From positions 43,772,001 to 43,836,000 of the forward strand of contig OX597826.1 of the NCBI GenBank assembly GCA_951406725.2: a DNA stretch of 64,000 bases, read 5' to 3'. Shown piece by piece: positions 19,226 to 40,780 of this stretch. The position numbers were made by a program, and so were the translations under genes. The stretch comes from Octopus vulgaris. Lineage: Eukaryota. Each line of letters starts with the position of its first letter. The first letter of the stretch is position 1. A model generated the notes under the pieces. The model made no database searches. It was not told the origin of the DNA and was given only the letters and a program-made list of their open reading frames with translations.

Positions 19226-19420
19226 TTTTTTAACCTTAAGAGGACATCTCCTCCAGCTGGTTAACGATGCATAGCTGTATCCGAAATATTGCGAGCAGGA
19301 GAGCGAACCCCTACCACCATCTAGCGACGGGACCAACAAACCAGCACACCAGATTGGTTTCGGTGTATTTCTGCCTCTCTTCAGTACTGAATACCTCGTC
19401 TACTTGAGATAAATTTGTTA
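19226..19420 (-). mobile_element. Family A HHR element, decayed
   Basis: Minus strand CAGUA CUGAAGA ...GAAAC CA AUC UGGUG (about 19347-19391), followed by the family-A hairpin UUAACC AGCU GGAGGA GAUG UCCUCU UAA GGUUAA. Confidence 0.6.
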
Positions 19421-19854
19421 TTACGATAAGTATTATTATATATAGAGGGGACAAAACAGGACAATACAATGATGTCTAGGTTTATGAGCTTATGAAGGAG
19501 ACAGTATAAGTAAGTTTAGTCTTTATGGAGGTTGTGGGTAGAAAGGTAAGATAGATAGATAGATAGATAGATAGATAGATAGATAGATAGATAGATAGAT
19601 AGATAGATAGATAGACAGATACATAATTGTAATAATGGCTTCACATTTTGGCACAAGACCAGAAATTTAGGGGGAGGGGGAGAAATCGATTACATCGACC
19701 ACAGTTCACAAATTATTTCAATGACCTCGAAATGATGTAAGGCAGATTCAACCTCGGTGGAATGTGAACATAAAGACGGATGAAATGCCGTAAAGCATTT
19801 TGCCCAGCATACCTTACGATGCTGCCAGCTTATATATATATATATATAACAGCA

Positions 19855-20286
19855 ATGGCGCGGGCTGGCAGAAACGTTAGCATGCCGGGCGAAATGCTTA
19901 GCGGTGTTTCGTCTGACTACGTTCTGAGTTCAAATTCCGCCGAGGTCGACTTTGCCTTTCATCTTTTCGGGGTCGATAAATTAAGTACCAGTTACGCACT
20001 GGGGACGATATAATCGACTTAATCCGTTTGTCTGTCCTTGTTTGTCCTCTCTATGTTTAGTCCCTTGTGGGAAATAAAGAAATAAGAAACGTTAGCATGC
20101 CGGGCAAAATGCTTGGCGATATTTCGTCTGACTTTACGTTCTGAGTTCAAATTCCGCCGAGGTCGACTTTGCCTTTCATCCTTTCGGGGTCGATAAATTA
20201 AGTACCAGTTGCGCACTGGGGTCGATTTAATCGACAGCACCCCCCCGCAAATTTCGGGCCTTGTGCCTAGCAGCAATAATAAAAGA
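19855..20286 (+). mobile_element. Two Meta-domain-like SINEs in tandem (Tx1-tailed copy followed by old-tail copy)
   Basis: Duplicated agaaacgttagcatgccgggc...gtcgat..aatcgac body with two different tails. Confidence 0.88.
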
Positions 20287-20439
20287 ATACACACACGCAC
20301 ACTCACGCACGCACAATGACATGCATATTCTTTCTTAATACATCCTAGCACGTTTCAGCGTGAACATGCTAGTCACTGTTGCATTTCGTCATTGGAGAAC
20401 TTTTCCTTTCATACGAATGCGTATTCATAACGAAACAAC

Positions 20440-20885
20440 AACTAATACTAATACTACTACTACTGCTGCTGCTGCAACTACTACTACTACTACTACTACT
20501 ACTACTACTACTACTACTACTACCATTACTGCTACTACCACTACTACTATCACTACATCAAATGGAAATTACAAATATCAAGAACTACTACTACTACTGT
20601 TGTTGTTGCTGCTGCTGCTGCTACTACTACTACTACTACTACTACTACTACTACTACTGCTGCTACTGCTGCTGCTACTACTACTTCTATAATCACTACA
20701 AAACCTAGAAATTATGACTGCTGCTTCAGCAATAATATCAAGAACTACTACTACTACTGCTACTACTACCACCACCACCACCACCACCACTACTACTACT
20801 AATACTACTACAGCCATCAGCACCACCACCACCACCGCTGGCGCCGTCGCTTCTGCTGCTGCTACTGCTGCTGCTGATGCTGCTC
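20440..20885. repeat. Compound trinucleotide tract (CTA/CTG/CCA/TTG)n
   Basis: Visible directly; the spacer atatcaagaactactactactactg occurs twice. Confidence 0.92.
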
Positions 20886-21783
20886 CACCTGCAACGTTGA
20901 AGTTTTGCTATTTGTGTCAGCTTAATTGGACTGTGAATCTCACAAGTTCATTAGTGAAGTGATTAGTAACTGTACGTTATCCAAGCATCAGAAATTAATT
21001 TTCCCTAGTTGTTGTTATTGTTGCTGTTATTGCTTTTGTTGCTAGCCACGGCATCTGATCGTGTTGATTTGGTTAATATTTTTGTTGTGGAAAAAAGTTA
21101 AACATCAACCGATGCTAACTAAGCGCTATTTTCTAAACTCTAAGTGTTTCTTATTAGAAATTAATTTGGGACAAAAACAAAACATTTAGTCGGCAACGCC
21201 ATACAATTAGACATTTCTTCTGTTACTATTTATATTTAGCCTATTTAATTGTTCTCTTTCTCTAATATAATTCCCAATTTGTGATTAGTGATGCGTTGAA
21301 AAGGATAATCATGATTTGAAGCAATCGCATGTGACATAATCAATACCGTGAAAGTTTAAATAACTAGTGACTTCTAAGCTTACTTGATAACCTTCCCATT
21401 TAGCTAGATTAGCAAATTAAACAATTTGCGTACGATAAATTAACAAACTCAGTATTAGCAGGCGGAGTTTGATTGCTCATGGTAAATACTGGACATAAAT
21501 CAGAACGCTGAATCCTGGTGAGCCGTAACTGTCACGGCCATCTGTTGTACTTACAACTGATCACATCTCTCAGTATTTGAATTTAATAGTCTTTGGTAGA
21601 CGTGTTCACTTGCCAAGATAGTAACAATTGTTACAATCTGCGTGGTAAGTAGTCCACTTCACCACAATCACATAGTTCCGGGTTCAAGTCTCACTGCTGG
21701 CTATTTCGGCAATTGTCTTCTACTATACTTCTGCTACAACTTCTCTGGCCGTCCAAAGTCTTGTGAGTGGATTTGGTAGACAG

Positions 21784-38026: not shown

Positions 38027-38288
38027 GTTTTTCTTTCCACGGGTAAACCTCACCTATCCCCCCCTTTACACTTTATATTGACATTTCTGTGATAACGATC
38101 CCTATTGATCGATTTTTTTCTTTTTTCCTTTTATTCCCCCACCCCCTTTTTTTTGCTTTTCTCTTTCTTTCCTTTTACGATCCCTTTTGATCGAAAACCA
38201 AACCCTCTTTTTTTTATCCCCAAAAATAAAAGCTCTACCTTGTAATTTGTCCCGTCTGTGTGCAGCCCTGTGTGGCTAATAAAGAAAC
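38027..38288 (+). mobile_element. Short 5'-truncated 3'-UTR copy of the Tx1 LINE, within (TATC)n
   Basis: Aligns with 39550-39925 and ends gccctgtgtggctaataaagaaac + atatctatct. Confidence 0.88.
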
Positions 38289-38598
38289 ATATCTATCTCT
38301 ATAGAACTATATACTTGCACATGCCACCCCTTCCTACTCCCTCACCATCCAAATCACCACGTAGTCTATCTCCTGTTCCCCATGCGGTGTTTTCCAACTA
38401 ACTGTTACCCATAGACCAACATCAAACCAAAACGCCGCGTGATCTTCCTCGACCAATCGCAGCCCACTTTATGACAATAACAATCAACTTCTGTCATTCA
38501 AATTCAAAATGGCTGACAACTAGCATCACGCTTGAAACTCAGGTGTAGTAACGAATTTGAATCAAACTGTTTTGTTCTGTCTGTCTATCTATCTATCT

Positions 38599-39925
38599 GT
38601 CACCGTCATAGTGTCTAGCCACGAGCACATCGAGCAGGTCGGCGAGACACTGAAAAACTACGAAGCGGTGACAGGAGCGAAAATCAACCGGGAAAAGTCA
38701 GTGGGCTTGCGACTAGGCACCTGGAGAAGCAAGCCCATGCCGTCCACCAGCGCCTCCGTCGTGGGACGCTGGACCGACGGCCCGGTTGAGTTGCTCGGGG
38801 TCTGGTTTGGTCCGGACCTCCAAGTGGAGAAGAACTGGAACGAAATAACGAGTAGGGTGGTCACTCTCGCCCGGCAATGGGCCGAGAGGAAACTGTCCCT
38901 AAAAGGTCGGGCGGAGGTGGCGAACACGTACAGGGCCCATGGACAACTTCCAGAGATCCCTGGCCTGGCAGTGCTACCGAGAAGCGCTACCTGTTCGGGA
39001 TAAGCTCTACAGACACGGCTCGAGAAACACGGGGCCGACCTGCCCGAGATGCGGTCAGAGCGACGAAACCGTTCTGCACGCACTAGTGCAGTGTCCAACA
39101 ATTTCCGACCTGTGGGCTTATGTCGAACAACTGCTGTCACGTGTGGGACGAGTCGGTTTATCAGCTGAGTCTATCGTCAATATTGTCACGCCTCCTTCCT
39201 TCAAACGGGAAGGAAGAGCTATTTTCATCATCCTTGTGGCTATGGCGAAAGAATGTATCTGGTGGACGCGTCTGAAAGGATTGGAGACAAACACTTTCCT
39301 CTCTGGTCAATCTCTCATCAACTTCTTCAAGTACCACTTGAAAAGGAAAGTGAGAGTAGAGAGGCAAGTTTTGTCTAGCGAATGTTTTAAAAAGATGGGT
39401 GAATGTAGCAAGGATGGCACGTATGAATGACGAAACCACCTTGAGCATAATCCTATGAACCCAGAAATTGAAAACAGAGGGTTACCCACTTGCAAACAAA
39501 TGTGGTAACATATAACAATATTGACCAAGGTTACGGTGGTCTTTTTCGTAGGCTTTTCTTCCCACGGATAAACCTTACTTGCTTTCCCCTTTACACCATA
39601 TATCATAACACTGTGATACACGATCCCTATTGATCGTTCTTTTTTTTTTTTCCTCTTCCCCTTTTTGTCCCCTTTTTTCTTCTTTTTTCATTTCTCTTTC
39701 CTTTTGTTCCTTTTCCTTTTCTTTTTTTTTCTTTTTATTCTTTTTAATTTATTCAATTCTTTTTTTGTTTTTGTTCTTTTCTTCCTTTTACGATCCCTCT
39801 TGATCGAAAACCTACGCCACCCCTTTTTTTCTTTTGTTTTTTGTTCTCTTCATCCCCCAAAAGAAAAGCTCTACCTTGTAACTTGTCCCATCTGCGTGCA
39901 GCCCTGTGTGGCCAATAAAGAAACT
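38599..39925 (+). mobile_element. 5'-truncated, internally deleted Tx1/L1-clade LINE (RT end, CCHC zinc knuckle, 3' UTR)
   Basis: YEAVTGAKINREKS..LLGVWFG..WAERKLSLKGRAEVANTY joined to LAWQCYREALPVRDKL..CPRCGQSDETVLHALVQC; ends aataaagaaac + (TATC)n. Confidence 0.93.
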
Positions 39926-40599
39926 TATCTATCTATCTATCTATCTATCTATCTATCTATCTATCTATCTATCTATCTATCTATCTATCTATCTATCTAT
40001 CTATCCATCCATCCATCTATCCATCCATCCATCTATCTATCTATCTGTCTATCTATCTATCTATCTATCTATCTATCTATCTATCTATCTATCTACCGAC
40101 ACGTCTCTCCACAAATAGTGGGGCTCAAAAATGGATGGATGTAAAATAAAAAGTTACATTCTCGAGTTATACCGACTCATAAGGGCTGTTTCCCAGTTTT
40201 CGTGGCATCTAAATTTACCACCTGGAATTCACCACCGCAGCAGCATTACTCATTTTTTCCAGCTGAGTAAACTGGAGCAACGTGAAATGAAGTGTTATGC
40301 CCAAGAGCACAACGCGTCGCCCGGTCAAGGAATCGAAACCACAATCTTACGATCATGAGTCCAAAACCTCCACAAAATGAATGGATGGGCGTAGAAATAC
40401 AAAGTAGCTGGCGCCTACCGTAGGTATCCTAGTTGTCTAAATAATGTTCCTCTTTATTCCTGACTATCTAATTTGTTTATTTTCATTCAAATGTTTTTAT
40501 TGTTTTAAGAAATTAGCTCGTCAAGAGAATCTCTATAAGAGACGAAGGTAGTATATATACTGTGAAGTAATGTTTATCGCCATTTAAACAAGGGTGGTC

Positions 40600-40780
40600 T
40601 TCAAGAACGGACGATACTGCTATTTTAACACCGGGGGACTTCTCCAGTTCGTTAACAATGTAATTCGCACTCGATATATATTGCAAGCGGGAAGAGAACT
40701 CCTTACTATCCCAGCTATCGAGAACATCAGACCGCGCGGTTTCGACCTTATTATGGTCATTCTCAGTATGCTAGACTTAA
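40600..40780 (-). mobile_element. Family A HHR element, decayed
   Basis: 40771-40724: GCAUA CUGAGAAU GACC AUAAUAA GGUC GAAAC CGCGCG GUC UGAUGU; downstream part homologous to 19240-19310. Confidence 0.68.

What the first reader, a model, noticed from the sequence alone, without database searches (positions are those of the whole stretch)
19226..40780. Covarying structured RNA motif 3' of the hammerhead in five diverged family A elements
Seen on the HHR strand at 19.24-19.29 kb (-), 22.01-22.08 kb (+), 27.61-27.70 kb (-), 36.05-36.12 kb (+, mirrored at 35.85-35.93 kb) and 40.60-40.65 kb (-, most decayed). The motif is a GACAC..GUGUC-type hairpin, an outer stem (UAGCC/GGCUA, AGCC/GGCU, UUAACC/GGUUAA), an AGCU-type internal loop, and an inner stem (GGAGAA/UUCUCC, AGAGGC/GCUUCU, GGAGGA/UCCUCU, AGGAGGC/GCUUCCU). 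The inner stem is capped by GAUG in three copies and followed by a tail like CAGUAGCAUCCACCCUUA. Compensatory changes and G-U pairs favour an RNA structure on this strand. The tail CAUC/CAUU could pair with the GAUG loop as a pseudoknot. The motif is better conserved than the HHR stems. I do not recognise it as a known ribozyme or Rfam family. Inference: an undescribed cis-acting RNA (RT-recruitment, ligation or stability signal, or a second ribozyme) in a retrozyme-like system.
Basis: partly seen in the sequence, partly recalled or inferred. Interest (0 to 1): 0.8.

Follow-up and report, generated by a model that had tools for sequence, protein, structure and literature searches.

The report
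Conserved RNA arm in animal retrozymes
Ten related families of a small non-coding jumping repeat in this animal genome keep the same base-paired RNA shape next to their hammerhead ribozyme, about 90 bases before the spot where many copies end, so the shape is likely a protein docking site that helps the RNA get copied by a Penelope-type enzyme it probably borrows.

Summary
The motif is real. The five copies belong to five high-copy subfamilies of a 351-363-nt non-coding hammerhead repeat (non-LTR retrozyme type); five more subfamilies were found. The AGCU/UGG loop is nearly invariant and no Rfam family matches. Copies end at two fixed places 3' of the motif (260 of 306 ends), start anywhere, and often carry an inverted 5' piece (88 of 192 loci): the Penelope-like (PLE) insertion signature. 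No pile-up of ends inside the motif argues against a second ribozyme. Best reading: a protein-binding arm of an RNA domain that presents reverse-transcription start sites to a borrowed PLE enzyme (0.5). No autonomous PLE examined carries the arm, so a host-factor role is a strong rival (0.3). Expression, cleavage and binding are untested. I found no description of this domain in the papers searched.

The parts
19222..19410 (-). Subfamily C1 copy, 86% to its subfamily majority; hammerhead core from 19384, cut site after 19347 (triplet reads GUG, predicted inactive); cut off at 19222 by another repeat before P3
19231..19281 (-). Motif in C1: hairpin H1 19281-19266, P1/internal loop/P2 19263-19231, GAUG loop 19248-19245 (3' loop strand decayed to UAA)
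21785..22184 (+). Subfamily C2 copy, slightly more than one unit; hammerhead core (UUGAUAA type in the subfamily, CUGAUAA here) from 21919, cut after 21949; ends near 3' site 2
22009..22144 (+). Motif and P3 domain in C2: H1 22009-22026, P1/loop/P2 22030-22062, P3 strands 22068-22074 and 22138-22144
27572..27909 (-). Subfamily C3 copy, 98% to majority (young); hammerhead core CCGAUGA from 27783, cut after 27751; ends at 3' site 1 in a TA run
27624..27692 (-). Motif in C3 (most deviant: AUCA/UAG loop, 7-nt cap ending in GAU): H1 27692-27673, P1/loop/P2 27671-27636, P3 5' strand 27630-27624
35813..35998 (-). Subfamily C4, minus arm of an inverted insertion: 3' half of the hammerhead (cut after 35987), H1 35926-35910, P1/loop/P2 35907-35875; ends at 3' site 1 in a TA run
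35998..36209 (+). Subfamily C4, plus arm: H1 36047-36063, P1/loop/P2 36066-36098, GAUG 36081-36084, P3 strands 36106-36112 and 36171-36177; ends at 3' site 2 in a TA run
40510..40799 (-). Subfamily C5 copy, 85% to majority (old, decayed): core from 40766, cut after 40730, H1 40671-40657, P1/loop/P2 40654-40626, P3 strands 40619-40613 and 40555-40549

Best explanation
The motif is a conserved, covarying arm of a ~357-nt non-coding hammerhead repeat, and it likely acts as a protein docking site that helps the RNA enter the complex of a borrowed Penelope-like reverse transcriptase, which would start copying about 90 or about 145 bases further 3'. Shown: ten subfamilies keep hairpin H1, stems P1 and P2 around an AGCU/UGG loop, and the next stem P3; copies end at two fixed places, one inside P3 and one 45-60 nt later; 5' ends are scattered and run through the hammerhead cut site; inverted 5' pieces are common; genomic copies decay almost neutrally. 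Inferred: a tandem array is transcribed; the template is an uncut multimer or a ligated circle; P3 presents the first start site in an A/C-rich loop; the H1-P1-P2 arm binds the PLE protein, or a factor that leads to it, in trans; the PLE endonuclease nicks AT-rich DNA and primes reverse transcription. Selection acts on the few master RNAs, not on the genomic copies.
For: Covariation between subfamilies. 260 of 306 3' ends in two windows covering 70 of 357 nt, against 48 of 299 5' starts; same two ends as loose ends in contigs of two public runs with different organism codes. Inverted piece on the 5' side at 88 of 192 loci, on the 3' side at 0. Loop-to-site-1 distance 90-94 nt in C2, C3, C4, C6, C7, C10. 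In the anole Poseidon element the RNA needed by the protein and both start sites lie 3' of the hammerhead cut, starts are in an AC-rich stem-loop, and cleavage is not needed (PMC11167929). The only 2 fragments of a C-rich PLE family in 1.9 Mb held both abut a monomer on the same strand (L025, L304). Stems and other positions of genomic copies diverge alike (5.6% vs 6.7% outside CpG).
Against: No autonomous PLE examined carries the arm: 1 hit in 68 PLE 3' regions, a separate C4 insertion; the model hits L168 and L172 only at separate retrozyme insertions; foreign relatives of the candidate partner have only 18 nt between the cut and their enclosing stem. The whole monomer is nearly constant in length, so fixed spacing does not single out this arm. 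Sequence likeness of P3 to the foreign PLE end is not significant (368 of 1000). Only 69 of 306 ends pass a strict TA test, 0 of 42 in C6. The partner evidence is two junctions. Copy-level two-sided changes are 39 against 17 expected, so decay is not perfectly neutral or sub-lineages are mixed.
Confidence: 0.5

Rival explanations
1. The arm binds a host protein and serves the RNA's own life cycle (ligation into circles, protection, export, silencing of the hammerhead in the circle, or delivery to ribosomes as Alu RNA does through SRP9/14, recalled). P3 alone would then serve the reverse transcriptase.
For: The arm is found only in non-autonomous monomers. Retrozyme circles need host ligases, and the authors infer a blocking mechanism other than self-pairing (PMC7229834 section 17). 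The loop stayed nearly invariant while PLE families diverged widely.
Against: No host-factor motif was recognised (Rfam). The arm sits in the stretch that the PLE protein needs in the one PLE studied in vitro. The true partner's 3' end has not been seen.
Confidence: 0.3
2. The stems are a passive scaffold: they keep the monomer compact and keep the rod and hammerhead from misfolding; the loop letters are conserved through a tertiary contact such as the reader's GAUG pseudoknot or a kiss with hairpin Hb.
For: Most of the circle is paired and several other hairpins are conserved. A 3-bp contact of the cap with the triad after P3 is possible in 8 of 10 subfamilies, and a 4-bp kiss with the Hb loop in 10 of 10, mostly by G-U.
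Against: The triad has one compensatory event (222 of 1000). A scaffold does not need the arm to be better conserved in sequence than the hammerhead (0.82 vs 0.74).
Confidence: 0.1
3. The arm is a second self-cleaving or ligating ribozyme of an undescribed class.
For: Conserved unpaired bases in an internal loop and cap, next to coaxially stackable stems.
Against: 5' starts are flat across the unit: 50 of 299 in the seven 10-nt bins of the motif, about the average; 3 of 306 3' ends there. No ribozyme family matches, although Rfam also missed the hammerheads, so this test is blunt.
Confidence: 0.05
4. The conserved letters are a DNA-level internal promoter or factor site (snRNA-type, as earlier notes of this scan propose for such repeats), and the pairing is incidental.
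For: Earlier AI notes report LINE insertions at a likely snRNA-type start site in such repeats (unchecked). Newt satellite repeats are transcribed by polymerase II (PMC6765202 passage). C5 tails lie upstream of tRNA genes in one array.
Against: Two-sided changes in 11 of the 17 pairs of the arm keep pairing, not sequence. A promoter may lie elsewhere in the monomer without touching this arm.
Confidence: 0.05

Closest known systems
Metazoan non-LTR retrozymes (Cervera and de la Pena 2020, PMC7229834: passages and sections 14 and 17 read, supplement unreadable; Li, Clavereau and Pollet 2026, bioRxiv 10.64898/2026.07.22.740005: parts 1 and 3 of 5 and a term search, supplements closed)
   Same: Type I hammerhead in each 351-363-nt unit (mussel 350-390 bp), tandem and solo copies, co-occurrence with PLEs, highly self-paired circular fold.
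   Different: The parts I read give minimum-energy folds and call the sequences species-specific; they describe no conserved covarying domain outside the hammerhead. Li et al. link retrozymes to pLTR sequences; here no pLTR with the arm was found. Circles and cleavage are shown there, untested here.
3' region of the anole Poseidon PLE (Frangieh et al. 2024, PMC11167929: parts 1-2 of 4 read)
   Same: Two reverse-transcription start sites 3' of the hammerhead cut, one in an AC-rich stem-loop; AT-rich targets; copies not bounded by the cut site.
   Different: Autonomous and coding there; sites are closer to the cut (first at +111-118 of the ORF, cut at +26) and 30-40 nt apart; the binding motif was only bracketed, not defined. 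Here the sites are about 175 and 220-235 nt from the cut, 45-60 nt apart, and a covarying fold is defined.
PLE insertion architecture (Craig et al. 2021, PMC8557442: passages read)
   Same: 5' truncation, partial tandems, inverted 5' piece, optional tail, TA-microsatellite bias in part of the subfamilies.
   Different: No ORF; tail longer than 30-40 bp; non-autonomous Chlamys elements share 3' ends with autonomous families, which was not found here.
Telomerase RNA (template domain plus CR4/5 activation arm; recalled, only search listings seen)
   Same: PLE reverse transcriptases are sister to TERT (PMC8557442 abstract); an enclosing stem around an internal start region and a separate stem-loop arm is a similar layout.
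   Different: No sequence or Rfam match, no supported pseudoknot, long processive copying instead of repeat addition. An analogy only.

Membership tests
Non-LTR retrozyme | Type I hammerhead in each unit | tested here: met
   Core and three stems in the majority line of 10 of 10 subfamilies, some with variant cores
Non-LTR retrozyme | Tandem units of about 170-400 nt | tested here: met
   351-363 nt (C1 incomplete at 343); 91 of 192 loci tandem or partial tandem; 103 of 311 pieces longer than one unit
Non-LTR retrozyme | No protein-coding capacity | tested here: inconclusive
   Units too short for an RT; three PLE proteins gave tblastn hits only in flanks of monomer loci; monomers were not scanned against protein families
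Non-LTR retrozyme | Self-cleavage in vitro | not testable with these tools
   Bench assay needed
Non-LTR retrozyme | Abundant circular and linear monomer RNAs | not testable with these tools
   No RNA holder on record, contigs only
PLE-mobilised element | Two alternative 3' ends (tail) | tested here: met
   260 of 306 ends in two windows; same ends in public contigs
PLE-mobilised element | Inverted 5'-truncated piece and variable 5' truncation | tested here: met
   88 of 192 loci on the 5' side, 0 on the 3' side; flat 5' starts
PLE-mobilised element | Insertion bias to TA microsatellites or AT-rich DNA | tested here: inconclusive
   69 of 306 ends by a strict TA test; 16 of 30 in C3, 0 of 42 in C6
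PLE-mobilised element | 3' end shared with an autonomous PLE of the same genome | tested here: not met
   Not in 68 PLE 3' regions, but only 150 of 6136 GIY-YIG candidates were scored and the C-rich family's own 3' end was not obtained
Known Rfam family or known small ribozyme class | Match to a covariance model | tested here: not met
   none; none among the 150 of 210 rows shown. Rfam did not pick up the hammerheads either
Eukaryotic SECIS element (recalled features) | AUGA/GA quartet with apical AA, 3' of a selenoprotein ORF | tested here: not met
   Loop reads AGCU/UGG, cap G-R-Y-G, no ORF upstream
Telomerase RNA-like domain | Pseudoknot next to the template region | tested here: inconclusive
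   One compensatory event in the candidate triad, 222 of 1000

The most novel reading that the evidence does not exclude
Retrozymes of this lineage evolved their own two-part RNA domain, laid out like telomerase RNA: an enclosing stem (P3) that presents an internal start site, and a separate arm (H1-P1-P2 with the AGCU/UGG loop) that captures and activates a telomerase-related PLE reverse transcriptase in trans. This would be the first defined recognition element by which an animal retrozyme hijacks its enzyme, with the C-rich PLE family at L025 and L304 as partner.
Probability: 0.25. Interest if true: 0.82.

Novelty: new variant of a known kind. Interest (0 to 1): 0.62.

Why it matters
How non-coding retrozyme RNAs are recognised and copied by PLE enzymes is open: the papers read name PLEs as likely partners but no RNA signal, and the one in-vitro PLE study only bracketed the binding region. 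Here a 130-nt domain with natural compensatory variants, two mapped start sites and a candidate partner family makes the question directly testable. It also bears on how telomerase-related enzymes select internal start sites, and on a very common repeat in this genome (18 matches at E<0.02 in 780 kb; roughly 60,000 if extrapolated).

Tried and rejected
Rfam: no match over the motif. Pseudoknot GAUG/CAUY: not significant. A second idea, Hb loop pairing with the linker just 3' of it, fails in C7 and was dropped. Exact pattern scans of viral and metagenome contigs: 0 (tight pattern, so no evidence of absence). Neptune-like protein against metagenome and viral contigs: no relative; alignment A4 against viral contigs: none. 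RNA: no RNA holder listed; contigs of four guessed-RNA runs cannot show strand, ends or circles. The intact 781-aa Neptune-like family as partner: same two-end and TA signature (23 at end 1, 7 at end 2, of 35) but its own minimal hammerhead and no arm; a short AGCAGCAUU-like word it shares with the P3 5' strand was not tested. PLE fragments near monomers at L194, L287, L292 are separated by TA runs or other DNA, read as shared targets. Likeness of the foreign PLE 3' end to C3's P3: not significant. Model R1 and pair count 91 used mis-registered structure strings and were discarded; replace them. In one search the C10 P3 strand was mis-picked and corrected. In alignment A3 the P2 3' strand of the short-cap subfamilies is shifted by one column, so undercounts. 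Literature: ten searches showed no description of this domain; PMC13282606 has 0 mentions of ribozyme or hammerhead; PMC4209133 passages name no downstream motif; PMC5785218 is not held; the supplement of PMC7229834 (mussel sequences and folds) and the bioRxiv supplements could not be read and may bear on novelty; Dfam and Repbase were not available.
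Full report
Setting. The window is G000:C13:43772001-43836000 of a 2.8-Gb animal genome in 227 contigs. 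Size and repeat content suggest an octopus-like animal; that is my inference, no call names it. The window is rich in microsatellites and short repeats.

Observation. The five places and the mirror copy hold the described hairpin, outer stem, internal loop and inner stem. Each window copy retrieved its own set of close relatives: 96-98% for the 27.6-kb and most 36-kb hits, 90-94% for 22 kb, 79-84% for 19 kb, 74-81% for most 40.6-kb hits; first-look candidates numbered 300 to 2383, of which 40 were scored per search. So these are five subfamilies (C1-C5). Profile searches of further stretches gave five more (C6-C10), and two more variants were seen once (L149, L304). Majority monomers are 351-363 nt, C1 incomplete at 343, and 42-84% identical. 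A model built on 20 real copies finds the six window places and 18 matches at E<0.02 in 780 kb of neighbouring and arbitrary stretches; a sequence profile gave 0 hits on the same stretches reversed.

Anatomy of the unit, from the hammerhead cut site: 3' side of a long rod that carries the hammerhead (about 1-55); hairpin H1 (about 58-77); P1, loop AGCU/UGG, P2 with purines on the 5' strand, cap G-R-Y-(G) (about 78-112); P3 5' strand (about 115-125); hairpins Ha and Hb; an A/C-rich linker, in most subfamilies with a small hairpin Hc; P3 3' strand (about 180-192); three more hairpins; 5' side of the rod; hammerhead. The loop is AGCU/UGG in 8 of 10 subfamilies, AACU/UGG in C7 and AUCA/UAG in C3.

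Covariation. On one majority line per subfamily, 271 of 280 cells in 28 pairs are Watson-Crick, 4 G-U, 5 unpaired. With substitutions re-dealt over the tree 1000 times, H1+P1+P2 shows 15 double-sided changes against 3.1 +/- 1.6 (0 of 1000) and P3 10 against 1.6 +/- 1.2 (0 of 1000). The structure was read from C1-C5, so that part is circular; in C6-C10, found later by sequence alone though partly close to C1, C4 and C5, 139 of 140 cells pair. On 18 distinct real copies 85% of cells pair and 22 of 34 pairs have a two-sided change, above 500 of 500 shuffles and all slid controls; RNAalifold finds H1, P1 and P2 by itself. Single window copies fold only modestly (z -0.16 to -3.56); majority domains H1-P3 reach z -1.9 to -6.1 on 60 shuffles. 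The pseudoknot is weak: the C of CAUC belongs to P3, the remaining 3-bp contact has one compensatory event (222 of 1000) and fails at one position in C3 and C8. Genomic copies diverge at 5.6% in stems, 6.5% in loops, 6.7% elsewhere outside CpG, 14-16% at CpG (copies were chosen as best hits, which lowers all rates). Selection therefore acted between masters, on the RNA.

How copies arise. Of 306 distinct 3' ends, 119 fall at 160-189 and 141 at 210-249; of 299 5' starts only 21 and 27 do, 7 lie within 10 nt after the cut and 50 in the seven bins of the motif. Site 1 lies 15-18 nt 3' of Hb, in the loop of Hc where present, and 90-94 nt from the AGCU loop in six subfamilies. Loose ends at both sites recur in contigs of runs X15 and X17, which carry different organism and study codes. 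88 of 192 loci have an inverted piece on the 5' side and none on the 3' side; 91 are tandem or partial tandem. 223 of 311 pieces span the cut (inflated by my queries) and 103 exceed one unit, so the template is not a linear monomer that begins at the cut. These are the PLE features listed in PMC8557442 (passages), and PMC11167929 shows that the two ends are reverse-transcription start sites. Against: a strict TA test passes for only 69 of 306 ends and for none of 42 in C6.

Partner. The genome holds an intact family with a 781-aa RT plus GIY-YIG ORF, Neptune-like by its cysteine linker (no tree built). It has the same two-end pattern but no arm; neither has any of 68 PLE 3' regions, drawn from 150 scored of 6136 candidates. 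A different, C-rich PLE family turned up twice in 1.9 Mb, both times abutting a monomer on the same strand: at L025 about 900 nt of RT frame run straight into the 5' end of a C4 copy and the whole lies between TA runs, as a template switch would leave it; at L304 a fragment follows a monomer's tail at once. Its relatives are RT-GIY-YIG proteins of many animals, 52-55% identical at best. In foreign copies of that lineage (L378-L385) a minimal hammerhead is followed by an enclosing stem with an inner hairpin, one copy ends in the A/C-rich linker and three end 56 nt later: a layout like P3, but without significant sequence likeness (368 of 1000) and without H1-P1-P2.

Mechanism. I commit to the arm as a protein docking site that brings the RNA into a PLE complex in trans, with P3 presenting the start site (0.5). 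Fold, ends, inversions and near-neutral decay are shown; transcription, cleavage, circles, binding and the partner are inferred. The absence from autonomous ends is the main evidence against and supports a host-factor role (0.3). Scaffold (0.1), second ribozyme (0.05) and DNA promoter (0.05) are less likely for the reasons given above.

Known and new. The element fits the non-LTR retrozymes of PMC7229834 and the PLE link proposed in bioRxiv 10.64898/2026.07.22.740005. No Rfam family matches, and ten literature searches showed no account of a conserved domain outside the hammerhead; unread supplements and repeat databases may hold the sequences. Earlier notes of this scan reach the same class for related units and propose an snRNA-type promoter; none of the entries shown treats this arm, and they are not independent support.

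Verdict. A real, statistically supported RNA structure in a known kind of element; new as a defined domain, with a testable but unproven role. Interest 0.62.

Noticed in passing
L129 and L130 (G000:C20:52912001-52932000): A tandem array of tRNA-Asn(GTT) genes (15 ARAGORN calls, one read as Ser) is interleaved with whole C5 monomers and with copies of the C5 3' tail; period about 1.63 kb. A retrozyme tail has become part of a tRNA gene repeat.
   Followed up: partly
L255:9330-9725; L343-L372: A young repeat of about 400 nt with Helitron-like ends (3' hairpin then CTAG; label recalled) carries a 62-nt C4-like P3/Ha/Hb fragment and an inverted tail piece; 40 hits at 97-100%, 30 of 30 loci share the upstream part.
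   Followed up: partly
L025:441-1660: About 900 nt of a C-rich PLE RT frame joined directly, same strand, to the 5' end of a C4 copy, the whole between TA runs: a likely template-switch chimera.
   Followed up: yes
L304:525-1716: An eleventh, C9-like subfamily copy with an inverted 5' piece, followed at once by a fragment of the same C-rich PLE family and then by C10 copies on the other strand.
   Followed up: partly
L161-L167, L179, L180: Intact Neptune-like PLE family: overlapping 479-aa and 781-aa frames, minimal hammerhead with UUGAUAA core in the 3' UTR, two 3' ends about 35 nt apart; a predicted stem joins the post-cut region to the ORF1 start codon.
   Followed up: partly
window 35098 (-) and 58528 (-): Another minimal-hammerhead family without the motif; its core and stem II resemble those behind the foreign PLE ORFs at L378-L385.
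   Followed up: no
subfamily majority lines: Hammerhead cores vary between successful subfamilies: CUGAUGA, CUGACGA, CUGAAGA, CUGAGGA, CCGAUGA, UUGAUAA; cut triplets GUC and, in C6, AUA.
   Followed up: no
window 26538-27175 and 26773-27574: Large nested inverted repeats (238-nt and 137-nt arms, 95-99% complementary) next to the C3 copy.
   Followed up: no
window 12467-13272, 19902-20314, 28508-28703: A 161-184-nt dispersed repeat in head-to-tail arrays.
   Followed up: no
window 4235-4756 (-), 38536-39430 (+), 42221-42724 (+): Fragments that read like non-LTR retrotransposon ORFs (judged by eye, not scanned).
   Followed up: no
L378-L385: Eight PLE loci, several near full length, lie in a record labelled as a bacterial genome bin: animal host DNA in the bin is the likely cause.
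   Followed up: partly
L032:1059-1239: A decayed U2 snRNA copy 260 nt upstream of a C3 copy, separated by another repeat.
   Followed up: partly
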